Assembly: GCA_046583365.1 (NCBI GenBank)
Contig: JAYGCL010000079.1
Coordinates: 17,508 to 81,507, forward strand
Length of the DNA stretch: 64,000 nt
Reading direction: 5' to 3'
DNA from: Deltaproteobacteria bacterium
GTDB taxonomy: Bacteria > Desulfobacterota > Binatia > UBA1149 > CAYXZP01
The position numbers were made by a program, and so were the translations under genes. Positions 24,131-60,715 of the stretch are shown here, in pieces. Under the pieces are notes generated by a model that ran no database searches, was not told the DNA's origin, and worked only from the letters and a program-made list of their open reading frames with translations. Each line of letters begins with the position of its first letter. Position 1 is the first letter of the stretch.

Positions 24131-24136
24131 GTATAT

Positions 24137-25546: not shown

Positions 25547-25553
25547 AGCGGCC

Positions 25554-27014: not shown

Positions 27015-27026
27015 CGGGCGAAGGGC

Positions 27027-27656
27027 GTGGGGTTTGAACTGGTCGTTTTTGACTGCGACGGAGTGCTGTTTGATTCCGACGGTGCCAATTGGGCCTTCTA
27101 TGATGAGATCATGAAGCGGGCCGGCCAGCCCCCCTTGCCGGAGACCGCCAGACCAGACGCCAGTGCCCTGGCCTCGGCCCAGCTGTTTCAGCGTTACTAC
27201 GGTGACGATCCCGAGTCTCTGGCCACCATTCGTGCCACGGCGCGGGCGACCGATTACGGTCCGTTCTTCTCCCTCATGAAACCACGCAGCGACCTGCGCC
27301 AGGTGATTGAGGGTCTCAGGGGCCGCTACCAAACGGCCATGGCCAGCAACCGCAGCCGCACGCTTGGCGGCGTGATAGAACATTTCGGGCTTGAGGGCCT
27401 GTTCGACCTTGTCGTCGGTGTGGCCGACGTCAAACATCCAAAGCCCGCCCCCGACATGCTGCTCGAATGCAGCCGTCGGCTGGGGGTGGACCCCGGCCGG
27501 GCGGTCTACGTGGGCGACCAGGAAAGCGACCGCCTGTCGGCCGCTGCCGCCGGCATGGTCTTTGTCGGCATCGGCGCTGCTGTGGCCGCCGCCGAGTTCA
27601 GGATCAACACCCTTGAGGAGCTGGAACCCCTGCTTGCGAGTATCGATTGCGCCTAG
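27027..27656 (+). CDS. HAD-superfamily hydrolase (phosphoglycolate/sugar-phosphate phosphatase-like)
   Basis: Motif I VVFDCDGVLFDS and motif IV VYVGDQESDRLSAAAAGMVFV. Confidence 0.7.
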   Translation: MGFELVVFDCDGVLFDSDGANWAFYDEIMKRAGQPPLPETARPDASALASAQLFQRYYGDDPESLATIRATARATDYGPFFSLMKPRSDLRQVIEGLRGRYQTAMASNRSRTLGGVIEHFGLEGLFDLVVGVADVKHPKPAPDMLLECSRRLGVDPGRAVYVGDQESDRLSAAAAGMVFVGIGAAVAAAEFRINTLEELEPLLASIDCA

Positions 27657-29387: not shown

Positions 29388-30392
29388 TCAGTGGCCGTCG
29401 CGGTGTTGATTGATTTCGAGCAGTCGAAATTTCGCGCTGGGGGCGATGCCGTCACGGTCGTAGACTATCGCCTCAACGCCTGCCGCCTGGGCCACGGCCA
29501 GCCCCTTGCGGCCCGTGATCACCAGGGCCGTGGACCAGGCCTCGGCCACCGCGGCCCGTGGGGCCATTGCGGTGGCAAGGCGGGGGGGAAGAACCGGGCT
29601 TAAATTGAAAGGGTCAATGATGGGCCCAACCTCGGCTGCCGGTCCCAAGGCCTTTGAGGTTGAAAGGGCCGCGTCGTGCAGTTCGACTGCACCCAGGAGT
29701 TGCCCCGGTTGGATGCCGCCGAGGGCCACCCGCCAGGCTTTGTCCCCTCTGGTCCGCCCGAGGGCCATGTGGCTGGAACCGCCGAAGTCGGCAAAGGCCC
29801 CGCGTGCGCCTTTGGATTTTAAAAAATCCACGATCTTGTCCAGGGCCAGGCCTTTGCCTATGCCACCGGCGTCCAGACGGACCCCGGGCAGGAGGGAGGC
29901 TGTGGGACGGGCTCCCTTTGCGCCTTCGAGGGTAAGGGCGGTTTGCAGACTCAAGGCTCCGCGCAAGGCCGCGCGTTCGAGCGTGTGCAGGTCGGCGGCG
30001 GTTGGAGTTTTGTGTTGCCGCCATAAATCCACGGCTGGCCCCAGGGCCGGGTCAAAGGTGGCCTTGGTGGCTTGGGCCAGGTCTTTCATTGTCGCCAGGG
30101 CCCAGGCCAGGTCCGGGCTTATGGCTACGGCTCCACTGCCGGCCTTGAGGTTGAGCCGTTCCAGCTCCCCTTCGGGCCGCCAGGTGGTAAGCACGTCGTC
30201 CCAGTGCCGGGCGATTGCAATACAAGCCTGGGCCAGACGGTCGGCTTCCTCGCCGGTGGCGGCCACCACTTCGACTTGCAAGACGGTGCCCATGACGGCC
30301 GCCGCCGCCTTTGCCGAGGCAGCGCCGGCGGCTGTGGCCGGGGCCGCCAGGACAAACAGAAGAAATACCAGCGCCGGCAGCGCTCGCGTCAA
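29388..30392 (-). CDS. apbE: FAD:protein FMN transferase
   Basis: Signal peptide, and an ApbE fold with LDAGGIGKGLALDK and a C-terminal Mg/FAD-binding region. Confidence 0.8.
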   Translation of the reverse strand: MTRALPALVFLLFVLAAPATAAGAASAKAAAAVMGTVLQVEVVAATGEEADRLAQACIAIARHWDDVLTTWRPEGELERLNLKAGSGAVAISPDLAWALATMKDLAQATKATFDPALGPAVDLWRQHKTPTAADLHTLERAALRGALSLQTALTLEGAKGARPTASLLPGVRLDAGGIGKGLALDKIVDFLKSKGARGAFADFGGSSHMALGRTRGDKAWRVALGGIQPGQLLGAVELHDAALSTSKALGPAAEVGPIIDPFNLSPVLPPRLATAMAPRAAVAEAWSTALVITGRKGLAVAQAAGVEAIVYDRDGIAPSAKFRLLEINQHRDGH

Positions 30393-30929: not shown

Positions 30930-31493
30930 CTAATCGTTGTCGGTTGGGGAGGCGGCGATGACTTCTTCATAAACCGCCAGCGCGCGGCCCACGGCGGAGA
31001 CCACGGCCCGCGAACTCAACGTCGAGCCGGTTACGGCGGCCAGGTCGCGGCCTATACGCAGGCCACTGCCCAGGCGCTTGCCCTTGAGTTGCTCCAACCA
31101 ACGCGCGCTCGGCAAGTATTCCAACGGCTCGTAGAAGGCAAGGACGTACACGGCACGTACCCGCCCGTCCGGGGAGAGGACGGTCAGGAAAGCCTCGGGG
31201 AGGGTGCGTACGATGTGGGTGTCGAGCAAGGCATAGCCGAGGGGTTCGTCTTGTTTGTAGCCGCTGTAGACTTTTATCAGGTCCGAATCGAGTCTGGTTC
31301 TGGCCGCGGCCTCGATTCGTTGGTGCTGGTCGGGACTAAGAAACAGCGTTGTCGTCTCGGTACGGGTGGCCTCGGGAAAGGCCAGGGCCGGCACCTCATC
31401 AAGTGAGTAGAAAACCGTTGCCGCGGCTTGGCCCGGGCAGGCCAGGCCGCAGGCAACAACCAGAGTGAGGCAAGGTTTCAGGAATGCTGGCAT
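30930..31493 (-). CDS. FMN-binding domain lipoprotein, likely an ApbE flavinylation substrate
   Basis: Lipobox LVVAC, and FMN_bind flavinylation motif GRDLAAVTGSTLSSRAV near the C-terminus. Confidence 0.65.
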   Translation of the reverse strand: MPAFLKPCLTLVVACGLACPGQAAATVFYSLDEVPALAFPEATRTETTTLFLSPDQHQRIEAAARTRLDSDLIKVYSGYKQDEPLGYALLDTHIVRTLPEAFLTVLSPDGRVRAVYVLAFYEPLEYLPSARWLEQLKGKRLGSGLRIGRDLAAVTGSTLSSRAVVSAVGRALAVYEEVIAASPTDND

Positions 31494-34022: not shown

Positions 34023-34631
34023 ATGGCGCCCCCACGGCCGAGCTTTGCCCTTTCCCTGGCCCTGGCTGTAGCCGTTCATGTGGGGGCCTTTGCCTTTCTC
34101 ACCCCCGGCCCGAGCGACCTGCCGGCCTACCGGCCCAGCCCTCCGGTCGTTTTGAGAGGGGAACTTTCCCCCCGCGATTCGGCACCACCCCACCCCGACC
34201 CTGACCCTGCCAGCCTCGGGCAAAGCCAACCGCAGCGGGGCCGCGCCCGTACTACGGCGGCACAGGTGGCGGTGGCCCCGATGGCGGCGGTCCGCGAGCA
34301 CGGCTCCGGCGATGAGGCCCTCATCGGCTACCAGTCTCTGCTGGCAGCCTGGTTGGAACGTTACAAACGCTACCCCGCAGCTGCCCTGCGCCGCCGTATA
34401 GAGGGCCGGGGTCTGTTGCAGGTGAGCATAGACGGCCGCGGTAACCTTCGCAGCAGCCGCCTGCTCGAGGGGCTGTCCTCGCCTATTCTTGACCAGGCCG
34501 TCCTCGACCTGGCCCGCCGTGCTTCCCCCTTTCCACCCCCGCCGGCCGGGGATGGTCATTACGAGTTTACGGTGCCGGTTGAGTTTCGACTGGGCCGCTC
34601 TTTGCCGTCCCCGCCGCTTTCGTCGCGGTAG
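34023..34631 (+). CDS. tonB: TonB-family energy transducer
   Basis: N-terminal TM helix, Pro-rich spacer, and a TonB_C domain (YPAAALRRRIEGRGLLQVSIDGRGNL...LDQAVLDLA). Start moved to MAPPRPSF. Confidence 0.6.
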   Translation: MAPPRPSFALSLALAVAVHVGAFAFLTPGPSDLPAYRPSPPVVLRGELSPRDSAPPHPDPDPASLGQSQPQRGRARTTAAQVAVAPMAAVREHGSGDEALIGYQSLLAAWLERYKRYPAAALRRRIEGRGLLQVSIDGRGNLRSSRLLEGLSSPILDQAVLDLARRASPFPPPPAGDGHYEFTVPVEFRLGRSLPSPPLSSR

Positions 34632-35860
34632 GCTGAGGCCAGCAACTCTATGGGGTGGGTCACCTCGATGGCAAGGCCCTGGAGGGCAAAGGCCCTTTCC
34701 AATTGCAGCAGACAGCCGAGGTTGGCCACGGCCACGCTGCCGGCATCCTTGCCTTCGGCAAGACGGGCCTTGTCGGCTCCCAGACGTTCGGCCATGGCCG
34801 GGTGGTCGAGGTTATAACTGCCCGCGCTGCCACAACAGATCTGGTTGTCGCCCAGATCTTCCACCGCGCTCCCGGTTGCGGCCTCGACCAGGGCCCGTGG
34901 TGCCTGGCTTATCCCCTGGGCGTGTACGAGGTGACAGGCGTCGTGGTAGAGAACCGGCCCGTTGGTGTTGGCCAGGGGCCGGGGACGTTCGAAACCTTCT
35001 TCGAACAACAGTTCGCAAATGTCACGGGTCCTGGCCGACAGCGCCGCTGCTGCCGCCGAGAGTCCATCGTCAGGGTCATCGGCAAACAAGCGGTCGTAGT
35101 CCTTGAGCATGGCCCCACAGCCGGCGCTGGTACTGACAACGAAGTCGGCACCGCCCAGAACCTCGATGTTTTTGCGGGCCAGGGCTCGGGCTTCTTTTTT
35201 ACGGCCACCGTGAAGGGCCAGGGCCCCACAGCAGCCCTGGGCGGGAACTTCCAGGACATCAAAGCCGTTGCGGCGCAGTACCTCGACGGCCGCCTGGTTC
35301 GTCTGGGGGCGCAGCAGGGGGGCCACACAGCCCTCAAGCAAAACCACACGGGGGCGCTTGGCAGCCGTAGCCACAGGCCGGGCCGGCAGGGTTGGGGCCA
35401 GGTCGTTGCCGTTACGGGGCATCAGCGACAGCCCGGGCAGACGGCGGCGCAGGTGGCCCAGCCCCATGCGGTCCAGAGCGCGGGCCGTGGCCAGGGCCGC
35501 GGCCATGAGGGGGCGGTTGGTTGTTAGCACCAACACCAGGGTCTTCCATAGAGCCTTAAGAGGTCGGTGCCGGGGAGCGCTTATGAGGGGGCGGAAAGTT
35601 TCAATCCGCCGGCCGAAGTCCACTCCCGAAGGGCAGGCACTCTCGCAGGCCAGGCAACCGAGGCAGCCGTCGAGGTGGGCGGCCGCTTCATCATCGAGGG
35701 ACAACTGGCCGGCGGTGATCGCTTCCATCAGGTAGATGCGTCCCCGTGGCGAGTCGGCCTCGGTGCCCAGCTGTCTGTATGTGGGACAGTGGTCGAGGCA
35801 GAGTCCGCAGTGGACACAGGGCAGGCCGATGTCGGCCGGGTTGTCGATGGCCGGGTTCAC
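34559..35860 (-). CDS. glcF: Glycolate oxidase iron-sulfur subunit
   Basis: Two 4Fe-4S ferredoxin motifs (CVHCGLCLDHCP, CLGCLACESACP) and two CCG cysteine-rich domains. Confidence 0.8.
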   Translation of the reverse strand: MNPAIDNPADIGLPCVHCGLCLDHCPTYRQLGTEADSPRGRIYLMEAITAGQLSLDDEAAAHLDGCLGCLACESACPSGVDFGRRIETFRPLISAPRHRPLKALWKTLVLVLTTNRPLMAAALATARALDRMGLGHLRRRLPGLSLMPRNGNDLAPTLPARPVATAAKRPRVVLLEGCVAPLLRPQTNQAAVEVLRRNGFDVLEVPAQGCCGALALHGGRKKEARALARKNIEVLGGADFVVSTSAGCGAMLKDYDRLFADDPDDGLSAAAAALSARTRDICELLFEEGFERPRPLANTNGPVLYHDACHLVHAQGISQAPRALVEAATGSAVEDLGDNQICCGSAGSYNLDHPAMAERLGADKARLAEGKDAGSVAVANLGCLLQLERAFALQGLAIEVTHPIELLASAYRDESGGDGKERPSRNSTGTVNS

Positions 35861-37104
35861 AGTCCCCCTACAAACCTTCCCGGCGAGAGCACCCGGTCGG
35901 GGTCGAAACGCTCCTTGATGCGTTTCATAAGTTCAAAACCCTGGGGCCGTTGGTCCCACACCTGCAGCCCCTCCTTGACCTCGGCCGTGGCTCTTAGGAC
36001 CACCGCGCCGGTGGCAAAGCCGGTGGCAAGCCGGCGCAGGCCGTCGACAAGGTCGGCCGCGGCCTGGGTGTCGGTTGTCGAGATGCACAGCAAACCGCTG
36101 CCCAGATGTCCGCTTACCCTGAGGCCGCCCGGACTGTGGTGGCTTAAATGGTCAAGGACTTTGGCAGCAAAGGCCAGGGCCTGGGCCGGTTTCAAGGCGA
36201 CCTCTACGGCCAGGGTTTCCTCATCCATGGGGTGGACGGGAGAATGCCAGGGCTCGGTGGAAACAGAGACCTGGCGGCGACACAGGGAAGTGATGCCTTC
36301 GATCTGGTAATCGACCTCACTGCGGGTGCCTTCGACGCAGGCCAGCAGGGTCCAGGGCGTTTGCTGGGGGGTAACGGTAAAGTCCAGTGCGGCCAGGGGC
36401 AGTGATGAGGCGAAAACAGCCCGCCTGGCCTCTCCCAGTTCTTTGTCGCTGGGGAATTCACACACCACCGTGGCCCGGGTATGGGCCAGGGGGTGGGTGC
36501 GCAGGGTGACCTCGGTTATGACGGCGAGGGTACCCAGGGAACCGCAAAAAAGCCGCGGCAGGTCGTAGCCGGAAACGTTTTTTACAACCTTGCCCCCGCA
36601 GGCAAAATAGCGGCCGCTCCCGTCGACCACCCTCAACCCCAACACCATGTCGCGGCAGGCTCCAAAGCCGTAGGCCAGACCGCCACTGGCGCCCGTTGCC
36701 ACCAGGCCACCCAGGGTCGCACGTTCGGGGTGGGCCGGGTCCAGGGCCACCCTCTGACCGGTCTGTTCCAGGCTGCGGTTGAGACGGGCCAGGTTGACAC
36801 CGGCGCCTGCCGTCACCGTCAGGTCCTCGCTGCGTTGTTCGATGATATCGGCCATGCCGGTGGTTTGCAGACGCAGGTCGAAGGCTTCTGGTATCGCACC
36901 CGCACCGAGCTGGCTGCCCCCGCCGGTGGTAACAATGGCCAGGCGGTTTTCCCGGGCCGCCTGCACCACGGTAAGGACGTCTTCAAAAGTGCGGGCCGTG
37001 ATCACGTGGCCGGGGGTAATGCCGTCTATAGAGTCCTCGCTGCGTCCGCTGCGGGCCTGGCCGGGACCAAACGAAGCGGTTACGGCCGCTATGTCGTGGT
37101 CCAT
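35857..37104 (-). CDS. glcE: Glycolate oxidase FAD-binding subunit
   Basis: FAD_binding_4 domain. Translationally coupled between glcD and glcF. Confidence 0.75.
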   Translation of the reverse strand: MDHDIAAVTASFGPGQARSGRSEDSIDGITPGHVITARTFEDVLTVVQAARENRLAIVTTGGGSQLGAGAIPEAFDLRLQTTGMADIIEQRSEDLTVTAGAGVNLARLNRSLEQTGQRVALDPAHPERATLGGLVATGASGGLAYGFGACRDMVLGLRVVDGSGRYFACGGKVVKNVSGYDLPRLFCGSLGTLAVITEVTLRTHPLAHTRATVVCEFPSDKELGEARRAVFASSLPLAALDFTVTPQQTPWTLLACVEGTRSEVDYQIEGITSLCRRQVSVSTEPWHSPVHPMDEETLAVEVALKPAQALAFAAKVLDHLSHHSPGGLRVSGHLGSGLLCISTTDTQAAADLVDGLRRLATGFATGAVVLRATAEVKEGLQVWDQRPQGFELMKRIKERFDPDRVLSPGRFVGGL

Positions 37105-37107
37105 GCT

Positions 37108-38559
37108 CTAACCCCCTCCCCGCGGTCGTGGGCGCGTGACTTCCACACAAACACGGTTGTCGGGGAACACCTTGCCGGGGTTACAACGGCCGTCGGGGTT
37201 GAAGGCCTCTTTGACATCGGCCATAGCCTCGATGGCCTCATTGCTGAATGCCGCCGGCATGAGGTCGATCTTTTCAATGCCGATGCCGTGCTCGCCGGTT
37301 ACCGAGCCACCAAGTTCGAGACAGGCCTCGAGGATTTCCCTTCCGGCCGCCAGTACTCTTTTTATCTCTTCATCGTTCTTGTCGTCGTACAAAACCAGGG
37401 GGTGAATATTGCCATCCCCGGCGTGGGCCAGGGTTGCAATCTTCAAAGAGTATTTATCGGCCACCTGGGCAATTTTTTCGACGATGTCAGCCATGCGTGA
37501 ACGGGGTACCACCCCGTCCTGAGTACAATAGCTCGGGGCTAGGCGTCCCATCGCGCCGAAGGCCCGCTTGCGCGACTTCCACAGCAGTTGTCTTTCTTTC
37601 TCGTCGGCCATTCGTCTTACCTGGCTGGCACCGGCCCGGTGGCAGGCTTCTATTATACGGTCGCCGGCCTCGTCGAGACCGGCTTTGAGACCGTCGAGTT
37701 CGATGATCAGGACCGCGCCGGCCTCGCGGGGGAAACCAAAATGGTAGGCCTCCTCGACCGCCTCTATGACCATGGCGTCCATCATTTCCAGGGCCGCAGG
37801 AATGATACCGGCCGCGATGATGGCAGAAACAGCCCGGCTGGCTTCGACGACGGAGGGGAAAACGGCCAGCAGGGTGGACACCCCTTCGGGTTTTACCAGC
37901 AACCTCAAGGTGGCGGCCGTTATGATGCCGAAGGTACCCTCCGAACCCGTGGCCAGACCGGCCAGGTCGTAGCCCGTCCCGGTGGCCCCGCCGGCAGAAG
38001 CGGCGGCGGCGGGGCGGGTGAGGTTGACAACTTCGCCGTTGGCCAGAACCATTTCTATGGCCAGCAGATGGTTTACCGTCACCCCGTATTTCAAGGTATG
38101 GGGCCCCCCCGAGTTTTCTGCAATGTTGCCGCCTATCGTGCAGGCCGACTGGCTGGAAGGGTCGGGGGCATAATAGAGTCCGTGGGCAGAGACCTGGCGG
38201 CTCACTTCGAGGTTTACCACTCCGGCTTCAACTTCCACCGTGCGGTTTTCGACGTCGATCGAGCGGACCCGCTTCATGCGGCTGGTGCCTATCATCACCG
38301 GAATTTCCAGGGGCAGGCAGCCCCCCGAAACTCCGGTGCCGGCCCCGCGGGGGACAAAGGGCAAGTCGGCCTGGGCCAGTATGGCGAGTACGCGGCTCAC
38401 CTGTTGGGTAGAGTCCGGCAACAGCACCAGTTCGGGGCGGGCCCGCTCGAGCGTGTAGCCGTCGCACTCGTAGACCTTAAGAGCGGCCTGGCCGGTGACA
38501 AATCCCTCGCTGCCGACCACGTGTTTGAGGCGGCGTTTTATTCTTCCACTGAGAGGCAA
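37108..38559 (-). CDS. glcD: Glycolate oxidase subunit GlcD (FAD-linked oxidase)
   Basis: FAD_binding_4 domain, and the C-terminal HAGDGNIHPL motif typical of GlcD/D-lactate dehydrogenases. Confidence 0.85.
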   Translation of the reverse strand: MPLSGRIKRRLKHVVGSEGFVTGQAALKVYECDGYTLERARPELVLLPDSTQQVSRVLAILAQADLPFVPRGAGTGVSGGCLPLEIPVMIGTSRMKRVRSIDVENRTVEVEAGVVNLEVSRQVSAHGLYYAPDPSSQSACTIGGNIAENSGGPHTLKYGVTVNHLLAIEMVLANGEVVNLTRPAAAASAGGATGTGYDLAGLATGSEGTFGIITAATLRLLVKPEGVSTLLAVFPSVVEASRAVSAIIAAGIIPAALEMMDAMVIEAVEEAYHFGFPREAGAVLIIELDGLKAGLDEAGDRIIEACHRAGASQVRRMADEKERQLLWKSRKRAFGAMGRLAPSYCTQDGVVPRSRMADIVEKIAQVADKYSLKIATLAHAGDGNIHPLVLYDDKNDEEIKRVLAAGREILEACLELGGSVTGEHGIGIEKIDLMPAAFSNEAIEAMADVKEAFNPDGRCNPGKVFPDNRVCVEVTRPRPRGGG

Positions 38560-44974: not shown

Positions 44975-45190
44975 GTGAGACGCAAGGCTCTTCGCTGGTT
45001 TCGCCTCATAGGCGGGACGCTGCTCATCATTGCAGGGATAATCGGTGGGTTTATACCCATCTTGCAGGGCTGGATGTTTGTGGTGGCCGGCCTGGCCTTG
45101 ATGGCGCCGGAAAGCAGCAAGGCCAGCAGGGCGCTTGAATGGGCAAAGTCGAAGTTGGCAAAGACCAGAGCAAAGGAGAACCGGGGATGA
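44975..45190 (+). CDS. Small 2-TM membrane protein
   Basis: 71 aa with two hydrophobic helices (LLIIAGIIGGFIPILQGWMFVVAGLAL). Confidence 0.35.
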   Translation: MRRKALRWFRLIGGTLLIIAGIIGGFIPILQGWMFVVAGLALMAPESSKASRALEWAKSKLAKTRAKENRG

Positions 45191-45501
45191 CGGACAAGGA
45201 CCGTTTTGGAGACAAGCTACGCGACAAGGAACGCGTCGAAGAAGACCGTTATTTTGCCGAACAGGACCGGGCAAAGTTGAAGGCCATAAAGGAGGGCGTC
45301 ACCGAGGAGCCCCACCTTGGGCTGTGTCCGCGTTGTGGCAAGGCCCTGGATGAGAAGGTCTACCTGGGGGTTGCCATCGACGAGTGTGCGGCCTGCGGGG
45401 GAATATGGTTGGACAAGGGAGAACTCGAAGCGGTCAACGAGCGCGCCGACGAAGGCTGGGTGAGCCGTTGGATTCGCAGTGTGCTCGGCGAAGAGACCTG
45501 A
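45187..45501 (+). CDS. TFIIB-type zinc-ribbon domain protein
   Basis: CPRCG...DECAACGGIWLDKGELE matches the zf-TFIIB pattern. Start moved to MTDKDRF. Confidence 0.5.
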   Translation: MTDKDRFGDKLRDKERVEEDRYFAEQDRAKLKAIKEGVTEEPHLGLCPRCGKALDEKVYLGVAIDECAACGGIWLDKGELEAVNERADEGWVSRWIRSVLGEET

Positions 45502-46101
45502 GTGTTCAGCGGAATCATCGAAGACCTGGGCTCGGTGGCCGCGGTGGAGCCCTTGCAGTCTGGTTCGCGGCTTACCATAAAGACGGCGCTTGAAGTCGGC
45601 GAGATCGGCTTGGGCGACAGCATTGCCGTAAACGGGGCCTGCATGACGGCGGTGGCCGTTGCAAGTAAGAGCGGCACTTTCGACGTCGACGTGTCGGCCG
45701 AATCTCTGAGGTGTACCACCCTGGGTCTTCTCAAGGCCGGCAGCCGGGTAAATCTCGAACGTTCCATACGCATGAGCGACCGTCTGGACGGCCACCTGGT
45801 CTCCGGACACGTGGACGGTACGGGTAGTCTGAGGGCAATAAAGTCCGAAGGGGAATCGTCGGTCTACTCGTTCGAAGTAGCGGCTGACCTTATGCGCTTG
45901 ATGGTGGAAAAGGGCTCGGTGGCCGTCGATGGAATAAGCCTTACCTGTTTTAACTGTAGCCGCAGCGGTTTTGATGTGGCCGTCATAGCGCATACCGCCT
46001 CCGTGACTACCCTTGGGCTGCTCACCGACGGAAACCCCGTGAACATTGAAAACGATTTGTTCGGCAAGTATGTGGCCAAGCTGGCCGGCCCGGCCGTCTA
46101 G
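45502..46101 (+). CDS. ribE: Riboflavin synthase
   Basis: MFSGIIEDLG...AVNGACMT and the duplicated lumazine-binding repeat. Confidence 0.85.
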   Translation: MFSGIIEDLGSVAAVEPLQSGSRLTIKTALEVGEIGLGDSIAVNGACMTAVAVASKSGTFDVDVSAESLRCTTLGLLKAGSRVNLERSIRMSDRLDGHLVSGHVDGTGSLRAIKSEGESSVYSFEVAADLMRLMVEKGSVAVDGISLTCFNCSRSGFDVAVIAHTASVTTLGLLTDGNPVNIENDLFGKYVAKLAGPAV

Positions 46102-54901: not shown

Positions 54902-55747
54902 TGGGGGATCGCCCTCGGGTTTGCCATTCTATTGCAGTTTGGACCTTGCTTTGCGGCAACCGCCGTTGCCGAGGTCGAGGAGTGGGAACTGGCGCAAATA
55001 CCCGAACCCTCAGGGGTCGTCTACCACCCCATCCGCAACACCCTCTTTGTGGTAGGCGACGAGGGGCATATAGCCGAGGTCTCGATTTCCGGGGACTTGC
55101 TGAAATCGAAAAATATAGGCGGTGATCTCGAAGCCGTGACCTGTGATCCCGTCAGCGGACTCATCTACACTGTTCGCGAAGGACACGAGACGATTTTTGA
55201 AATACGTCCGGATGATTTCAAGATCCTGCGTCGTTTTACTATCGACCGCAGCTATGCCGGCAACGCAAATTTTCTTGAGCGGGGTGGCGACGGCATAGAG
55301 GGGCTCACCTTCAAGCCCGAGGCCGACCACGCCGAGGGCGGACGCTTTTTCGTCGTCAATCAGAACGACCCGCCTCTGCTGCTGGAAATTTCGGTCCCCA
55401 TACGCAGTTCCAAAGAGCGCTTTGAGATTGCCGAAATCGTTGGGGTCGCAAAAACCGGGTCTGGACCACTGTCGGGACTGTTCTGGGATGAGGAAACCAA
55501 CGTCTTCCTGGTCCTGTCATCGTTGTGGCGCTCGGTATACATTCTCGATGCCGGGCTTGGCTATCGTCGAACGGTCAAGGTCCCCGGTATCATGCTGGAG
55601 GGTATTACGCGGCTTCCCGACGGCTCCATAGTCATGGCCCAGGACACCGGCGGGCTGATACGATGGACGCCACCTGCAAACCCGTTCATGATCGCGGATG
55701 AAGATGAGCAAGAAGGCCGGCAGGAAAAACGCCAGGGCGAAGACTGA
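54902..55747 (+). CDS. SdiA-regulated/YjiK-like beta-propeller protein. The start codon is unresolved: there is no canonical in-frame start, and a G7 tract lies immediately upstream.
   Basis: Signal-like RRWGIALGFAILLQFGPCFAATAVA, then IPEPSGVVYHPIRNTLFVVGDEG (SdiA-regulated family signature), then repeated DGIEGLTF-type blades. Confidence 0.5.
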   Translation, partial: WGIALGFAILLQFGPCFAATAVAEVEEWELAQIPEPSGVVYHPIRNTLFVVGDEGHIAEVSISGDLLKSKNIGGDLEAVTCDPVSGLIYTVREGHETIFEIRPDDFKILRRFTIDRSYAGNANFLERGGDGIEGLTFKPEADHAEGGRFFVVNQNDPPLLLEISVPIRSSKERFEIAEIVGVAKTGSGPLSGLFWDEETNVFLVLSSLWRSVYILDAGLGYRRTVKVPGIMLEGITRLPDGSIVMAQDTGGLIRWTPPANPFMIADEDEQEGRQEKRQGED

Positions 55748-57164
55748 CACGGGTAAGGGCGGCCACCGGTTGGCTGTTGTCGTCCTGGCCGCTGGCCTCG
55801 GCAAGCGCATGCGCTCGCAGCGTGCCAAGGTTTTGCACGAGATTGCCGGGCGTCCCCTGCTCTCCCACGTTCTGTCGGCCGTAGGCCGCCTGTCCACCGA
55901 GCGTTGTGTGACGGTGGTGGGTTACCAGGCCGACCAGGTCGGCGCCCTGGCTGCCGAGCATGGGACCATCTGTGCATTGCAGTCGGAACAACTCGGTACC
56001 GGCCATGCCGTAGCGCAGGCCAGGTCGGCGCTTGGCAGGTTTCGTGGCGACTTGCTGGTGCTGGTGGGCGATGCTCCGCTGATAACCACCTCTACTTTGC
56101 GTATGCTTGTTTCCGGCCACCGCCGGCGTGGGGCCCTGGCAACCGTACTGACAACATTTGCGGAAAACCCGGACGGCTACGGTCGCATAGTACGCGACGA
56201 TGAAGGGGGCATAAGGATCGTCGAGCACCGCGACGCCAGCCGCACGCAACGGGAGATCGATGAGGTCAATACCGGCATTTATTGTTTCGATTCGACTTTT
56301 CTATTCCGGTCCCTCGCCTCCCTGGACCGCGACAACGTCCAGGGAGAGTATTATCTCACCGATGTCATGGCCGCGGCCTCGCACCGAGGCAAGGCCGGGT
56401 CGGTGGTTGTAGAGGATGAATGCGAGGCCCTGGGTGTGGACTCACGTCTGGGACTTGCCCGTGCCGAAGCGTTGATGCAGGAGCGTTTGATTCTGGGGTG
56501 GATGGAAAAGGGAGTGACCTTTCTCGACCCTTCTTCAGTATATCTGTCGGCCGATACCACAATAGGACGCGACGCCAGGGTAGGGCCGGGTCTGAGGACC
56601 CGGGGGGCCACGAAAATCGGCCGCGGGGTGGTCATAGACGGCAACGCCTATCTGGCCGATACCAGTGTGGGCTCCGGCAGCCACGTGCGTTGGGGAGTGG
56701 TGGCCGATGGTGCCCGCATCGGCCGCAACGCGAGGGTAGGTCCGTACAGCCATCTGCGGCCCGAGGCCGACCTCGGAGACGAGGTCCATGTCGGCAATTT
56801 TGTCGAAATTAAAAATTCCACAATCGGACGGGGTTCCAAGGCTAACCACCTCGCTTATATAGGGGATGCCAGTGTTGGCCGTGGTGTAAACGTCGGTGCC
56901 GGCACCATAACGTGCAACTACGATGGTTTTGCCAAGCACCGCACGGTCATCGAAGACGGTGTGCAGATTGGCAGTGACACCCAGCTTGTCGCCCCAGTTC
57001 GCCTTGGCCGTGGCAGCTATGTGGCCGCCGGTTCCACGGTGACTTCGGATGTGGAAGCCGATGCCCTGGTCTTTAACGATAAGCGGCAGCGGGTACGTCC
57101 GGGTTGGGCCCGCCGTTTCCGCCAACGGGCCGGCGGCACCGACGCCAAGGGAAAGAAAAAGTAG
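55698..57164 (+). CDS. glmU: Bifunctional UDP-N-acetylglucosamine pyrophosphorylase/glucosamine-1-phosphate N-acetyltransferase
   Basis: N-terminal LAAGLGKRM nucleotidyltransferase motif and C-terminal left-handed beta-helix hexapeptide repeats. The real start is probably downstream of 55698. Confidence 0.85.
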   Translation: MKMSKKAGRKNARAKTDTGKGGHRLAVVVLAAGLGKRMRSQRAKVLHEIAGRPLLSHVLSAVGRLSTERCVTVVGYQADQVGALAAEHGTICALQSEQLGTGHAVAQARSALGRFRGDLLVLVGDAPLITTSTLRMLVSGHRRRGALATVLTTFAENPDGYGRIVRDDEGGIRIVEHRDASRTQREIDEVNTGIYCFDSTFLFRSLASLDRDNVQGEYYLTDVMAAASHRGKAGSVVVEDECEALGVDSRLGLARAEALMQERLILGWMEKGVTFLDPSSVYLSADTTIGRDARVGPGLRTRGATKIGRGVVIDGNAYLADTSVGSGSHVRWGVVADGARIGRNARVGPYSHLRPEADLGDEVHVGNFVEIKNSTIGRGSKANHLAYIGDASVGRGVNVGAGTITCNYDGFAKHRTVIEDGVQIGSDTQLVAPVRLGRGSYVAAGSTVTSDVEADALVFNDKRQRVRPGWARRFRQRAGGTDAKGKKK

Positions 57165-57167
57165 GCT

Positions 57168-58997
57168 ATGTGCGGTATCGTTGGTTACGTGGGCCATCGT
57201 CATGCCGCCGGTGTCCTGCTGTCGGGACTGAGAAAACTTGAGTACCGTGGCTACGATTCGGCCGGCGTGGCCACGGTGTGCGATGACGACATCGACGTGC
57301 GTCGTGCCGTCGGCAAACTCGACAACCTCCAGGCGGTGCTTGCCGAGAACCCGATCGGCGGAACCATCGGTATAGGCCATACCCGTTGGGCAACCCACGG
57401 CCGCCCATCCGAACAGAACGCCCACCCCCACCGTTCCGGCGATGTGGTGATTATCCACAATGGCATCATAGAAAATTACGTTGCCCTGCGTGAGCAGTTG
57501 GTCGCCGAGGGCAGAGAGATAGCCTCGGAGACCGATACCGAGGTGATTTCCCACTTGATTGACCGTGAGATGACCAACGGCCGCGATATTTTTGAGGCTA
57601 CCACGGCCGCTATCGTATATCTGGAGGGTTCTTTTGCACTGGTCTCCATGTCGAGCCGTGAGCCCGGACGCCTGGTGGCGGCCAAGAATGCGACACCGGT
57701 AGTCATAGGGGTGGGCGATGGAGAAAATTTTGTCGCTTCCGACATCCCGGCGGTTCTGGAATACACCCGCGACGTACTCTTTCTCGAAGACGGGGAAATA
57801 GCCGACATCGACCGGAGTGGGATAAGGATTTCAACGTTCGCAGGCCAGCAGGTTTCAAGGAAACCCAAACGCATCACATGGGACCCTATCACCGCTCAAA
57901 AGGGCGGCTACAAACACTTCCTCATAAAGGAAATCCACGAACAACCGCAGGCCGTTATCGATACTATGCGGGGCCGGATTGCACAGGACACGGGTGATGT
58001 GCTGCTCCCCGAACTGGAGGCTCTGGGCGACAGGCTCGACCGCATCAAGAGGGCCACGATTGTCGCCTGTGGAACTGCCTGGCACGCCGCTCTGGTCGGC
58101 AAGTTCATACTAGAACGTTTCGCCCGCATACCCACAGAGGTCGACTACGGCAGCGAGTTCCGCTACCGCGACCCGCTGGTAGACGATGAGACCCTTATCA
58201 TCGCGGTTTCTCAGTCGGGGGAAACGGCCGATACTCTGGCTCCCCTGCAGCAGGCCCAGGACAAGGGCGCCCTGGTGGTTTCGATCTGTAACGTTGTCGA
58301 CTCTTCTATCGCCCGTAAGTCGGATGCGGTTATCTATACTCATGCCGGTCCGGAAATCAGCGTGGCCAGCACCAAGGCTTTCACCACTCAACTGACCGCT
58401 CTTTACCTTGTCGGCTTGTTTCTCGGCCGCCGCTTCGGAGGCATCAACGAAAGGCTGGAATCCGAGTGCATACAGGCGCTGGTGGAGATGCCCAGCTTGA
58501 TGCAGCAAACCCTGTCTTGTGAGAGCCATGTAGCCAGGGCCGCACGGCGTTACGCGTCCTCGTCTGACGTTCTCTATATTGGCCGCGGCATCAACTACCC
58601 GATTGCCCTGGAGGGAGCGCTCAAACTCAAGGAGGTCTCCTATATACACGCCGAAGGTTATCCGGCCGGCGAAATGAAGCACGGACCCATAGCACTTATA
58701 GACGACAAGATGCCGGTGGTGGTCTTAATCCCCCGTGACGAGGTTTACAGCAAAACACTGAGCAACCTGCGCGAGGTGGAGTCCAGGGGAGGACGCATCA
58801 TAGCCTTGACCGACAAGGCCGATGACGAACTCACCAGCATAGCCGAGACCATCATCGAGGTGCCGACGACCAGTACCAGCCTCATGCCGGTGTTACTCGC
58901 TCTTCCCCTGCAACTGTTGGCCTACCACATCGCCGTAGAGCGCGGCACCGATATCGACCAACCCCGCAACCTGGCCAAGAGCGTAACCGTCGAGTAG
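57168..58997 (+). CDS. glmS: Glutamine-fructose-6-phosphate aminotransferase
   Basis: MCGIVGYVG Ntn-glutaminase start, two SIS domains, and the C-terminal ...KSVTVE. Confidence 0.92.
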   Translation: MCGIVGYVGHRHAAGVLLSGLRKLEYRGYDSAGVATVCDDDIDVRRAVGKLDNLQAVLAENPIGGTIGIGHTRWATHGRPSEQNAHPHRSGDVVIIHNGIIENYVALREQLVAEGREIASETDTEVISHLIDREMTNGRDIFEATTAAIVYLEGSFALVSMSSREPGRLVAAKNATPVVIGVGDGENFVASDIPAVLEYTRDVLFLEDGEIADIDRSGIRISTFAGQQVSRKPKRITWDPITAQKGGYKHFLIKEIHEQPQAVIDTMRGRIAQDTGDVLLPELEALGDRLDRIKRATIVACGTAWHAALVGKFILERFARIPTEVDYGSEFRYRDPLVDDETLIIAVSQSGETADTLAPLQQAQDKGALVVSICNVVDSSIARKSDAVIYTHAGPEISVASTKAFTTQLTALYLVGLFLGRRFGGINERLESECIQALVEMPSLMQQTLSCESHVARAARRYASSSDVLYIGRGINYPIALEGALKLKEVSYIHAEGYPAGEMKHGPIALIDDKMPVVVLIPRDEVYSKTLSNLREVESRGGRIIALTDKADDELTSIAETIIEVPTTSTSLMPVLLALPLQLLAYHIAVERGTDIDQPRNLAKSVTVE

Positions 58998-59001
58998 TAC
59001 C

Positions 59002-60159
59002 GTGTTTACACAGATGCCACCGGGGACCCTCCCCTCCAGCCAGACTGCGATATCCCCCGTAGAGGAGATCATCGAGGAACTGAGGGTGGGCCGTATGGTC
59101 ATCCTCATGGACGATGAGGATCGCGAGAACGAGGGCGACGTGGTGGTGGCGGCGGAAAAAGTCACCGTCGACCAGATCAATTTCATGCTCAAGCATGCCC
59201 GCGGTCTCATCTGCATGCCGATGTCGGAAGAGCGCCTCAAGGCGTTGGGCCTGCGCATGATGGTGGCCGAGAATACGTCTCCCCTGGGGACCGCGTTTAC
59301 CGTATCGATAGATGCGGTGGCCTGCCAGGGCACCGGCATGTCGGCCAGGGACCGCACCACAACCATACGTACGGCGGCTGGCGACGATGCTGCCGCCAGG
59401 GATTTTGTCGTTCCCGGACACGTTTTTCCCCTGCGCGCCCGCGACGGCGGGGTGTTGGTAAGGACGGGACAGACCGAGGGGACTGTAGACCTTTGCCGCT
59501 TGGCCGGGTTGAAGTCGGCCGGGGTTATTTGCGAGATTTTGAACGAGGACGGGACAATGGCCCGTCTTCCGGAAATCGTCAGGTTCGCCGGCCTTCACGG
59601 CCTCAAGATTGGAACGGTTGCCGATATTATCCAGCACCGCCTTGAAAACGAGTCTCACGTCAGCTGTGTCGCCACGGCGAGGTTGCCGACGAAATTCGGC
59701 GGCGATTTCACAGTTCACATCTACCATTCGAGCGTCGAAGAAGGCGAGCACACGGTGTTGGTAAAGGGCGAGATCGACCCCGACCGTCCGGTGCTCGTTC
59801 GTGCCCATGCCGAGTATCTTCCCGGCGACGTGTTTGCCTATACCCACAGAAACACGCGCGGGGTGCTGCACTCGGCCATGAGGATGATTGCCGAGGAAGG
59901 CGCGGGTGTGATTCTCTACGTGCGCCGCCGTGGGCGTGGTGCCGAGATTCTGGCCGAGGACACTGATGCGCCGGCCAGCACCAACCCTGCGGCCCGGCTC
60001 GCCAACTTCAAGGATTACGGTATCGGTGCCCAGATTCTGCGTGACCTTGGTGTACGCAAAATCCGCCTGCTCACGAACTCCCCGCCGCGTTTTGCCAACA
60101 TCGGGGGCTATGGCCTTGAGGTTGTCGAGGTTGTGGCCGTAGAACCTATCGATACGTAA
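59002..60159 (+). CDS. ribBA: RibBA-like protein: DHBP synthase domain fused to a GTP cyclohydrolase II-like domain that lacks the zinc-binding cysteines
   Basis: RibB half has RENEGDVVVAAE and PGHVFPLRA, but TGQTEG where characterised enzymes have GHTE. In the RibA half, RAHAEYLPGD and AYTHRNTRG replace the Cys-containing SEC-LTGD and LRCDCG motifs. Confidence 0.75.
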   Translation: MFTQMPPGTLPSSQTAISPVEEIIEELRVGRMVILMDDEDRENEGDVVVAAEKVTVDQINFMLKHARGLICMPMSEERLKALGLRMMVAENTSPLGTAFTVSIDAVACQGTGMSARDRTTTIRTAAGDDAAARDFVVPGHVFPLRARDGGVLVRTGQTEGTVDLCRLAGLKSAGVICEILNEDGTMARLPEIVRFAGLHGLKIGTVADIIQHRLENESHVSCVATARLPTKFGGDFTVHIYHSSVEEGEHTVLVKGEIDPDRPVLVRAHAEYLPGDVFAYTHRNTRGVLHSAMRMIAEEGAGVILYVRRRGRGAEILAEDTDAPASTNPAARLANFKDYGIGAQILRDLGVRKIRLLTNSPPRFANIGGYGLEVVEVVAVEPIDT

Positions 60160-60715
60160 CTACGAGGTAGTGGGTGTTGAGCCCCGAATTGGCCTCGGCC
60201 CAGAGGCCGGCGTGCGATATGTGGCGCAGACGGTAACCGAGGGACCAACGGTGGGGGTCGGCGGCGCCAAAAGTCACGCCCCCGCCTATCTGGTCGCTGA
60301 ACAGGATTCGCGAGCCGAGGTTGTAGCCACGCAGGTCCGAGTAGGCCAGACCCACGCCGCCTTCCACGAAGGGACGAATGCTGCGGTCTCTAAAGCCCTC
60401 GACCCTGACCATGGGAACCACCGAGAACTCCACGGTTTCGGTATCCTTGGTGGTAAAGCCCAACAGGGGTTCGACCACCAGGGACAGGTCGAGGCCGTAG
60501 GGTTCGGTTGCCCGCTCGACCGCGGCCGGGGGTTGGAAGGAGAAACGCCAGCCGATGGCGTAGGTGACCAGGTTGCGGCCGCCCTGCTTGTGGGAGTAGC
60601 CCACGGCCAATATGGGTCCGTTGGTTCGGGCCTGGTCGACGGTTTGGGTCTGGCCGACGGCTGGCAGCAGGAGCAGGGCCAGGACCAGCAGAGCTTTGGC
60701 TGTGAGTGTATCCAT
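60146..60715 (-). CDS. PagL-like outer-membrane acyloxyacyl hydrolase/lipid A deacylase family protein
   Basis: Signal peptide, small beta-barrel, and a C-terminal RHISHAG...SGLN resembling the PagL His/Ser catalytic region. Confidence 0.5.
   Translation of the reverse strand: MDTLTAKALLVLALLLLPAVGQTQTVDQARTNGPILAVGYSHKQGGRNLVTYAIGWRFSFQPPAAVERATEPYGLDLSLVVEPLLGFTTKDTETVEFSVVPMVRVEGFRDRSIRPFVEGGVGLAYSDLRGYNLGSRILFSDQIGGGVTFGAADPHRWSLGYRLRHISHAGLWAEANSGLNTHYLVVTYR

What the first reader, a model, noticed from the sequence alone, without database searches (positions are those of the whole stretch)
59002..60159. RibBA-like protein with substitutions at catalytic positions in both halves
The GTP cyclohydrolase II-like half has none of the three zinc-ligand cysteines of characterised RibA. 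The context reads RAHAEYLPGD...AYTHRNTRG, and the GTP-binding loop is divergent. In the DHBP-synthase half, the position aligned to the catalytic His of the GHTE motif is Gln (TGQTEG). The gene follows glmU-glmS with a 4-bp gap. It may be a DHBP synthase with a regulatory pseudo-GCHII domain, or a repurposed enzyme. A separate functional GCHII should then exist elsewhere.
Basis: partly seen in the sequence, partly recalled or inferred. Interest (0 to 1): 0.55.

Follow-up and report, generated by a model that had tools for sequence, protein, structure and literature searches.

The report
RibBX-type DHBP synthase, dead cyclohydrolase domain
This gene most likely encodes a working riboflavin-pathway enzyme (DHBP synthase) fused to a conserved but catalytically dead GTP cyclohydrolase II-like domain, an arrangement already known as RibBX, and its unusual His-to-Gln change is the normal residue in many bacteria, so the finding is mostly ordinary.

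Summary
ORF 59002-60159 (+) is DHBP synthase plus a GTP cyclohydrolase II (GCHII)-like domain. All three zinc cysteines are replaced (Tyr272, Arg283, Thr285). Ring-opening Tyr105 is deleted. The DHBPS Mg-ligand His (E. coli His153) is Gln157.

Neither change is a one-off. All 120 closest homologs, mostly labelled Binatia or Deltaproteobacteria, share both. The Gln is not a sign of inactivation. 51 species-representative genomes carry GQTE RibBA with intact GCHII next to ribD, ribE or ribH.

The dead domain is under the same purifying selection as the catalytic half (dN/dS 0.077 vs 0.084). That fits RibBX: an active RibB fused to a non-catalytic, possibly regulatory X domain (Brutinel 2013; PDB 6mnz).

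This lineage looks like an independent derivative of a Gln-type RibBA. The gene is stand-alone, not in a rib operon. A stand-alone ribE lies 13 kb upstream. The glmU-glmS adjacency is not conserved in orientation.

NCBI already names the identical protein DHBP synthase. The source of GCHII activity in these genomes could not be established.

The parts
59002..60159 (+). RibBX-like gene (385 aa from GTG 59002; alternative ATG start at 59014 gives the 381-aa NCBI protein MFP6627067.1)
   Evidence: ORF. Pfam two-domain hit. 100% identity to P0271 (MFP6627067.1). The relative L091 has ATG at the position matching 59002.
59062..59634 (+). DHBP synthase (RibB) domain, residues 21-211. All checked catalytic and metal-site residues are conserved except His153 to Gln.
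   Evidence: PF00926 E 1.6e-81. TIGR00506 scores 231.7, above its cutoff of 177.45. DDEDRENEGD loop, Cys67, His136, Arg150, Thr154, Glu155 and Glu174 equivalents are conserved. The model matches RibB structures with TM about 0.8.
59470..59472 (+). Gln157 codon (CAG) at the Mg-ligand His position (E. coli His153, V. cholerae His154)
   Evidence: Sequence and alignments. All 120 homologs have Gln. The same GQTE occurs in 51 operon-encoded RibBA with intact GCHII.
59668..60135 (+). GCHII-derived 'X' domain, residues 223-378. Catalytically degenerate but conserved.
   Evidence: PF00925 E 2.5e-42. TIGR00505 scores 93.7, below its cutoff of 205.85. dN/dS is 0.077 versus 0.084 for the DHBPS half. Mean identity to the query is 74% in both halves.
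59800..59862 (+). Former zinc-binding motif (CX2GX7CXC in RibA), now RAHAEYLPGDVFAYTHRNTRG. Cys54 to Tyr272, Cys65 to Arg283, Cys67 to Thr285.
   Evidence: Alignments. Tyr and Thr are invariant in the 105 near-full-length family members tabulated. This segment has low confidence in the AF2 model.
55698..58997 (+). glmU (55698-57164) and glmS (57168-58997), immediately upstream. Syntenic neighbours, not a conserved operon with the gene.
   Evidence: Pfam. Same order in the 96% relative L091. Inverted, with YkuD intervening, in Binatia L002/L003.
45502..46101 (+). Stand-alone riboflavin synthase (ribE), 13 kb upstream. It shows that a riboflavin-pathway gene is present and that rib genes are dispersed here.
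   Evidence: tblastn. Two Lum_binding repeats, E 4.9e-45. Conserved context in relatives.
60146..60715 (-). PagL-like lipid A deacylase gene, convergent, overlapping the 3' end by 14 bp. A conserved downstream neighbour.
   Evidence: Pfam PagL E 2.5e-22. The same neighbour is present in L002, L003, L089-L092.

Best explanation
The gene encodes a RibBX-type protein. The N-terminal domain is an active Mg-dependent DHBP synthase, converting ribulose 5-phosphate to DHBP and formate for riboflavin synthesis. Its Mg ligand is the Gln157 amide oxygen instead of the usual His imidazole. The C-terminal domain descends from GTP cyclohydrolase II. It has lost the zinc site and the ring-opening Tyr, so it cannot make the pyrimidine precursor. 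It is retained under strong selection as a non-catalytic structural or regulatory partner of the RibB domain. GCHII activity must then come from another gene.

Shown: domain identity, loss of the Zn ligands and Tyr105, family-wide conservation, purifying selection on both halves, Gln as the normal residue of operon-encoded RibBA, and ribE in the same genome.

Inferred: DHBPS activity, absence of GCHII activity, a regulatory role of the X domain, and a separate ribA.
For: (1) The ribB equivalog-domain model passes its cutoff, while ribA and all bifunctional RibBA models fail. NCBI's pipeline names the identical protein plain DHBP synthase.

(2) Every DHBPS active-site residue checked is conserved family-wide except His153 to Gln.

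(3) Gln is compatible with function. 51 of 56 sampled Gln-type RibBA with an intact GCHII signature lie beside ribD, ribE or ribH, with only one RibB-like gene per locus. Of the loci retrieved only through a pattern that does not include the Gln, 26 are Gln and 20 are His.

(4) Loss of any one Zn cysteine abolishes Zn binding and GCHII function (Kaiser 2002, cited in PMC10366380). Here all three are gone, together with Tyr105.

(5) The X half is as constrained as the catalytic half: dN/dS 0.077 vs 0.084, and identity 74% vs 74%.

(6) The model matches Mtb RibA2 and A. baumannii RibBX over both domains.

(7) In characterised RibBX proteins the X domain lacks the same residues, RibB activity is kept, and X modulates RibB (PMC10012899).

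(8) ribE is in the window and on the same contigs in at least 10 relatives, so the lineage has riboflavin-pathway genes and needs a DHBPS.
Against: No enzyme with Gln at this position has, to my knowledge, been assayed, so activity of Gln-type DHBPS rests on genomic context. V. cholerae His154 is a direct Mg ligand and His154Ala is reported inactive (PMC9305975, PMC5228156).

The gene is not in a rib operon and has no FMN riboswitch. I could not show that these genomes have a separate ribA, or that they lack a second canonical RibBA. So sole-DHBPS status and the source of GCHII are both unproven.

Some family members (L011, L012, P0071) also replace DHBPS His136 with Tyr. That could indicate relaxed or altered catalysis in part of the family.
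Confidence: 0.75

Rival explanations
1. It is a neofunctionalised paralog. The protein is an extra copy alongside a canonical RibBA or RibB plus RibA elsewhere in the genome. It has acquired a different job. The DHBPS-like half might act on another sugar phosphate. The X domain might bind or hydrolyse GTP (GTP to GMP plus PPi) as a sensor coupling the two precursor branches.
For: The gene is stand-alone, outside any rib operon. The X domain keeps positions that align to conserved RibA residues: Arg49, His51, Glu53, Arg90, Asp129, Thr149, Asn150 and a basic residue at 128 and 154; Arg128 contacts the alpha-phosphate of the GTP analogue, and assigning the others to nucleotide binding is my inference. 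It is still 45-49% identical to true GCHII. Zn is not needed for pyrophosphate release by GCHII (Kaiser 2002 via PMC10366380). His136 to Tyr occurs in some members.
Against: The DHBPS active site is otherwise untouched and matches operon-encoded enzymes. No canonical ribB or ribBA was seen in the window or in any fetched Binatia locus. rib genes are dispersed in this lineage anyway, since ribE is alone. So being stand-alone says little.
Confidence: 0.15
2. It is a still-bifunctional RibBA. The C-terminal domain performs GTP ring opening with a different metal site built from the family-invariant His269, Glu271, Tyr272, Asn284 and Thr285.
For: These residues are invariant or nearly so across the family. 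No other GCHII was found in the sequence available to me.
Against: All three Zn ligands and the Tyr that positions the attacking water are absent. Single Cys mutants of E. coli RibA are already inactive. The ribA equivalog model scores 93.7 against a cutoff of 205.85. Characterised proteins with the same losses (RibBX, AtRIBA2) lack GCHII activity.
Confidence: 0.05
3. It is a decaying or non-functional gene (a pseudoenzyme in both halves), or the substitutions are sequencing or assembly errors.
For: Residues regarded as catalytic are substituted in both halves.
Against: The substitutions are identical in 120 homologs from many independent assemblies. dN/dS is about 0.08 in both halves. The reading frame is intact and the identical protein was recovered from several metagenomes.
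Confidence: 0.02

Closest known systems
RibBX of Shewanella oneidensis, Aeromonas salmonicida, Bradyrhizobium and Acinetobacter baumannii (PDB 6mnz)
   Same: Two-domain architecture: DHBP synthase plus a GCHII-homologous C-terminal domain that lacks the zinc-binding and ring-opening residues. It is expected to keep RibB activity only. The model superposes on 6mnz over both domains (literature).
   Different: Characterised RibBX keep GHTE (6mnz alignment) and sit inside the ribD-ribE-ribBX-ribH operon. This protein has GQTE and is stand-alone. Its X domain is much closer to real GCHII (110 bits to Mtb RibA2, 71 to E. coli RibA) than to the 6mnz X domain (52 bits), suggesting independent degeneration. 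It scores below the cutoffs of PRK12485 and PRK14019, which I recall as the RibBX-type models.
Operon-encoded Gln-type bifunctional RibBA of Desulfobacterota, Myxococcota and Nitrospirota (for example loci L013, L024, L032, L056, L066)
   Same: Identical GGVLVR(T/A/S)GQTE motif. The DHBPS half is 61-63% identical and the C-terminal half 45-49% identical. This is the probable ancestral type.
   Different: Those proteins keep CX2GX7CXC, Gln70, Glu92, Arg94, Tyr105 and Arg128, and lie next to ribD, ribE or ribH. The window protein has lost the Zn site and Tyr105 and is not in an operon.
Mycobacterium tuberculosis RibA2 (Rv1415, PDB 4i14)
   Same: Best sequence match (309 bits) and best structural match (TMt 0.83) over both domains.
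   Different: RibA2 is a true bifunctional enzyme with GHTE and all three Zn cysteines.
Arabidopsis thaliana RIBA2
   Same: A RibBA homolog that lacks zinc-binding residues, was shown to have lost GCHII activity and keeps DHBPS activity (PMC3509567).
   Different: It is a eukaryotic, plastid-targeted paralog that coexists with a bifunctional RIBA1. It has a C-terminal deletion, not a conserved X domain.

Membership tests
RibBX (DHBP synthase fused to a degenerate GCHII-like X domain) | N-terminal domain is a DHBP synthase with a complete active site | tested here: met
   PF00926 E 1.6e-81. TIGR00506 scores 231.7 against a cutoff of 177.45. All checked catalytic positions are conserved except His153 to Gln. 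That Gln is also the residue of operon-encoded RibBA with intact GCHII.
RibBX (DHBP synthase fused to a degenerate GCHII-like X domain) | C-terminal domain is homologous to GTP cyclohydrolase II | tested here: met
   PF00925 E 2.5e-42. 110 bits to the Mtb RibA2 GCHII half. Fold match to 4i14, 6mnz and 2bz0.
RibBX (DHBP synthase fused to a degenerate GCHII-like X domain) | X domain lacks the zinc-binding cysteines and the ring-opening residue | tested here: met
   Cys54 to Tyr, Cys65 to Arg, Cys67 to Thr, and Tyr105 deleted. The Cys replacements are family-wide; the Tyr105 deletion holds in the ~380-aa group.
RibBX (DHBP synthase fused to a degenerate GCHII-like X domain) | Has RibB activity and no RibA activity (complementation or assay) | not testable with these tools
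   This needs complementation of E. coli ribB and ribA mutants or enzyme assays.
RibBX (DHBP synthase fused to a degenerate GCHII-like X domain) | A separate ribA supplies GCHII in the same genome | tested here: inconclusive
   No second RibA-like gene is in the 64-kb window or in fetched relatives' flanks. Whole genomes could not be searched.
RibBX (DHBP synthase fused to a degenerate GCHII-like X domain) | Typical (not strictly defining) location inside the rib operon | tested here: not met
   No ribD, ribE or ribH within 10 kb in the window or in L001-L004 and L009-L012. ribE is 13 kb away and alone.
RibBX sequence families in NCBIfam (PRK12485, PRK14019; identified as RibBX-type from my recollection of their CDD names) | Score at or above the curated cutoff | tested here: not met
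   PRK14019 scores 436.4 against a cutoff of 513. PRK12485 scores 322.5 against a cutoff of 693.
Bifunctional RibBA (DHBPS / GCHII) | Intact CX2GX7CXC zinc site plus Tyr105 and Arg128 in the GCHII half | tested here: not met
   All three Cys are replaced, Tyr105 is absent and Arg128 is Lys. All RibBA equivalog models score below cutoff.
GTP cyclohydrolase II (RibA, TIGR00505) | Equivalog-domain score at or above cutoff | tested here: not met
   93.7 bits against a cutoff of 205.85.

The most novel reading that the evidence does not exclude
The Binatia-type X domain may not be an inert scaffold. It may be a zinc-free GTP-binding module. It keeps the positions aligned to conserved RibA residues (Arg49, His51, Glu53, Arg90, Asp129, Thr149, Asn150, and a basic residue at 128 and 154), while losing only the ring-opening machinery. 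It could sense GTP, or hydrolyse it to GMP plus PPi, to match DHBP output to the purine branch. Separately, the Gln-for-His Mg ligand, shared with a large block of Desulfobacterota, Myxococcota and Nitrospirota RibBA, could make DHBPS insensitive to low pH and to inhibitory zinc mis-metallation. That would be a natural test of the proposed role of His154 in the enzyme's pH dependence.
Probability: 0.2. Interest if true: 0.5.

Novelty: new member of a known kind. Interest (0 to 1): 0.27.

Why it matters
For annotation, genes like this should be called DHBP synthase (RibBX-type) and not bifunctional RibBA. Riboflavin pathway reconstructions for Binatia-like genomes must look for GCHII elsewhere.

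For enzymology, the survey shows that the Mg-ligand His of DHBP synthase is naturally replaced by Gln in many operon-encoded RibBA proteins. The papers I read treat that His as the metal ligand and speculate that it underlies the pH dependence (PMC9305975). Gln-type enzymes therefore offer a ready-made test of that idea and of metal selectivity.

For evolution, loss of GCHII catalysis within RibBA fusions appears to have happened many times, with the dead domain kept under selection. This supports the view that the X domain has a real, still undefined role.

Tried and rejected
1. Sequencing error or singleton for Gln or the Cys losses. Rejected: all 120 homologs share them.

2. Pseudogene or decaying domain. 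Rejected: dN/dS is about 0.08 in both halves.

3. Functional coupling to glmU-glmS. Rejected: the orientation is not conserved and the pair is absent in the 410-aa subgroup.

4. FMN riboswitch as a functional marker. No Rfam hit in the window or in 8 related loci, so this is uninformative.

5. Membership in the classical RibBX sequence families. Scores are below cutoff, and the X domain is closer to real GCHII than to the 6mnz X domain.

6. Attempts to show a canonical RibBA or RibA in the same genomes all failed to locate a GCHII source:
- The organisms of the closest intact-Cys representatives were not Binatia.
- ribE neighbourhoods on long contigs had no other rib genes.

7. My early statement that the window has no other rib gene was wrong. 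ribE at 45502-46101 had been hidden under a longer antisense ORF.

8. The primary RibBX paper (Brutinel 2013) and the V. cholerae DHBPS structure paper (Islam 2015) are not held. Their content is cited second-hand.

9. The NJ tree of representatives is poorly resolved. The counts of about 17 changes at the His153 position and about 31 intact/degenerate changes are rough indications only.

Full report
**What is there.** ORF 59002-60159 (+) encodes 385 aa from a GTG start. Pfam finds a DHBP synthase domain (residues 21-211, E 1.6e-81) followed by a GTP cyclohydrolase II domain (223-378, E 2.5e-42). Against NCBIfam, only the ribB equivalog-domain model passes its curated cutoff (TIGR00506, 231.7 vs 177.45). 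The ribA model fails (93.7 vs 205.85), and so do all six bifunctional RibBA-type equivalog models listed (best PRK14019, 436 vs 513). The protein is 100% identical to NCBI MFP6627067.1, which is called from the ATG at 59014. [quoted passage not shown] In the 96%-identical relative L091 the codon matching 59002 is ATG, so the longer start is plausible.

**Checking the observation.** HMMER alignments to Mtb RibA2 (4i14) and E. coli RibA (2bz0) put Tyr272, Arg283 and Thr285 at the three zinc ligands Cys54, Cys65 and Cys67. They put a deletion at the ring-opening Tyr105 and Lys337 at Arg128. In the DHBPS half, Gln157 (CAG, 59470-59472) aligns with the His of GHTE in every solved DHBPS. That His (V. 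cholerae His154) is a direct ligand of the catalytic Mg2+. It has been proposed to underlie the enzyme's pH dependence, and His154Ala is described as inactive (PMC9305975 and PMC5228156). glmU and glmS are upstream, with a 4-bp gap to the GTG.

**Is it a one-off?** No. All 120 best database homologs (60-96% identity) have Gln at the His153 position and Tyr / (Arg, Gly or Ser) / Thr at the cysteine positions. Every other DHBPS catalytic position checked is conserved: the DDEDRENEGD loop, Cys67, His136, Arg150, Thr154, Glu155 and Glu174.
- There are two subgroups. One is about 380 aa (Tyr105 deleted, Lys at 128) and includes the window. The other is about 410 aa (Arg at 128) and is found on complete 4-5 Mb (one 9-Mb) circular contigs.
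- Named members are 'Candidatus Binatia', 'Deltaproteobacteria' or 'Myxococcales' MAGs.
- DnaK from a 410-aa-group genome is 87-88% identical to Binatia MAG proteins.
- On the available labels the family is therefore mainly a Binatia-related (Binatota) trait.

**Is the Gln a defect?** This is the main correction to the finding. In a search of one representative per 50%-identity cluster, the 153 scored sequences (149 of the 150 listed representatives plus the query and three family members added by hand) split as follows:

| His153 position | GCHII cysteines | Count |
|---|---|---|
| His | degenerate | 79 |
| His | all three present | 33 |
| Gln | degenerate | 27 |
| Gln | all three present | 12 |

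- One Gln-type representative with an intact GCHII signature (P0142) lies directly after ribE.
- A scan of species-representative genomes returned 80 loci. I classified each RibBA-like gene and looked for ribD, ribE and ribH with tblastn.
- 51 loci have a Gln-type RibBA with the full GCHII signature (CCC, Gln70, Glu92, Arg94, Tyr105, Arg128) next to rib genes, mostly as ribD-ribE-ribBA-ribH. They come from Geobacter, Desulfuromonas, Smithella, Syntrophales, Desulfobulbus, Desulfovibrio, Desulfarculus, Myxococcales, Nitrospirota and others.
- Each of those loci has only one RibB-like gene.
- The motif context is unambiguous: PGH(V/I)FPLRA..GGVLVR(T/A/S)GQTE.
- One of the two search patterns contained the Gln, which biases the sample. 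Among the loci found only through the neutral pattern D[YF]GIGAQI, 26 are Gln and 20 are His.

Gln is therefore the ordinary residue of the main riboflavin-operon enzyme in a large block of bacteria, and it cannot be read as inactivation. Chemically, an amide oxygen is a reasonable ligand for Mg2+. That last step is my inference. I know of no assayed Gln-type enzyme.

**Is the GCHII-like half dead, and is it decaying?** Loss of any single cysteine of the CX2GX7CXC motif abolishes zinc binding and GCHII function, although pyrophosphate release does not need zinc (Kaiser 2002 as cited in PMC10366380). Here all three are gone, along with Tyr105. Canonical GCHII activity is therefore very unlikely. 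The domain is not decaying, though.
- Mean identity to the query is 74% in both halves within the 380-aa group, and 68% vs 61% in the 410-aa group.
- For the unsaturated pair (window vs L091, dS about 0.2), dN/dS is 0.084 for the DHBPS half and 0.077 for the X half.
- Family-invariant motifs include R.HAEY.PGDVF, NT, GAQIL, LTN.P.R and GYGLE, and STNP is nearly invariant.
- Positions aligned to RibA Arg49, His51, Glu53, Arg90, Asp129, Thr149 and Asn150 are kept, and positions 128 and 154 stay basic.
- An AlphaFold model (mean pLDDT 75.7) keeps both domain cores. Confidence is low in the former zinc loop (270-282), in the former Tyr105 region (311-329), and also in the mobile DHBPS loop (144-155) and the N-terminus (1-12).
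- The model matches Mtb RibA2 (TM 0.83 normalised to the target) and 6mnz, 'RibBX, a two domain DHBP synthase from A. baumannii'.

**Comparison with what is known.** The architecture and the pattern of losses are those of RibBX. RibBX is a functional RibB fused to an X domain that lacks the zinc-binding and ring-opening residues. It has no GCHII activity but modulates RibB, and ribA is encoded elsewhere (Brutinel 2013 and Nouwen 2021 as summarised in PMC10012899). Arabidopsis RIBA2 is a eukaryotic parallel (PMC3509567). This protein differs from characterised RibBX in four ways:
- It has GQTE, whereas 6mnz has GHTE.
- Its X domain is much closer to real GCHII than to the 6mnz X domain: 110 bits to Mtb RibA2 and 71 to E. 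coli RibA, against 52 to 6mnz.
- Its halves are 61-63% and 45-49% identical to operon-encoded Gln-type RibBA.
- It is not in a rib operon.

Together with the interleaving of intact and degenerate forms on a crude tree, this points to an independent degeneration of a Gln-type RibBA. That makes it another member of the RibBX grade, not a member of the proteobacterial RibBX sequence families.

**Genomic context.**
- The closest relative (a TARA marine metagenome) keeps glmU-glmS-gene-PagL.
- In Binatia L002/L003 the same neighbours are present, but glmS-glmU are inverted and a YkuD gene lies directly upstream.
- In the 410-aa subgroup the gene sits between a small unknown ORF and hsp33. The glmS adjacency is therefore local synteny, not a functional unit.
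- The window does contain one more riboflavin gene. A stand-alone riboflavin synthase (ribE) lies at 45502-46101 (+). It was first missed because a longer antisense ORF covers it.
- Its context is conserved in relatives.
- ribE is also alone in more distant members. Rib genes are thus dispersed in this lineage, so being stand-alone is not evidence against a housekeeping riboflavin role.
- No FMN riboswitch or any other Rfam family was found in the window or in eight related loci.

**What remains open.** I could not determine where GCHII activity comes from in these genomes, or whether a second DHBPS exists. This is the decisive missing piece, and the computation is listed under next steps. The His136-to-Tyr change in some members (L011, L012, P0071; also P0242, which keeps an intact GCHII) is unexplained.

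**Verdict.** The suggestion that the Gln marks a catalytic defect or repurposing is not supported. The gene is already in public databases, named as a DHBP synthase. Interest is modest. The most useful by-product is the documentation that Gln naturally replaces the Mg-ligand His in many operon-encoded DHBP synthases.

Noticed in passing
window 45502-46101 (+), with 45139-45501 (+) and 44975-45190 (+): A stand-alone riboflavin synthase gene (ribE) is hidden under a longer spurious antisense ORF (45217-45993). It is immediately preceded by a small Zn-ribbon (PF13453) protein and a PGPGW membrane protein. This trio is conserved in close relatives and in L098.
   Followed up: yes
window 29388-30392 (-) and 30930-31493 (-): An ApbE-family protein lies near a protein with an FMN_bind domain, suggesting a locus involving an FMN-binding protein. 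It is unrelated to the finding apart from the flavin theme.
   Followed up: no
window 34559-38559 (-) and 22463-27656 (+): One cluster holds two FAD-linked oxidase subunits plus an Fe-S/CCG subunit, which looks like GlcDEF glycolate oxidase. A separate cluster holds an FAD-dependent (glycerol-3-phosphate-type) oxidoreductase, another FAD-linked oxidase, an FGGY sugar kinase and a HAD phosphatase.
   Followed up: no
L011 and L012 (Binataceae and palsa 'Deltaproteobacteria' MAGs); proteins P0071 and P0242: The second DHBPS histidine (E. coli His136) is replaced by Tyr in some family members. It is also Tyr in one Gln-type RibBA with an intact GCHII signature (P0242). The significance is unknown.
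   Followed up: partly
representative proteins P0125, P0148, P0150, P0153: Some RibBA-like proteins keep all three zinc cysteines but have lost other GCHII residues (His51, Glu53, Gln70, Glu92, Tyr105). These look like intermediate or alternative routes of degeneration. P0153 is from the cultured Rubrobacter xylanophilus (WP_011563375.1) and has GQTE.
   Followed up: partly
window 60146-60159: The 3' end of the gene overlaps the convergent PagL-like gene by 14 bp. The same tail-to-tail overlap is present in close relatives (L089, L090, L091, L092).
   Followed up: partly
L009; proteins P0051 and P0275: Public taxonomic labels of some family members look wrong for this lineage. Examples are 'uncultured Enterobacteriaceae bacterium' and 'Candidatus Limnocylindrales bacterium'. 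Both carry proteins 60-73% identical to Binatia ones, suggesting mis-binning or mislabelling.
   Followed up: no
L097 10702-11469 (+): In one distant relative, ribE is followed by a ferredoxin-dependent bilin reductase (PF05996) gene, an unusual neighbour for a non-phototroph lineage.
   Followed up: no
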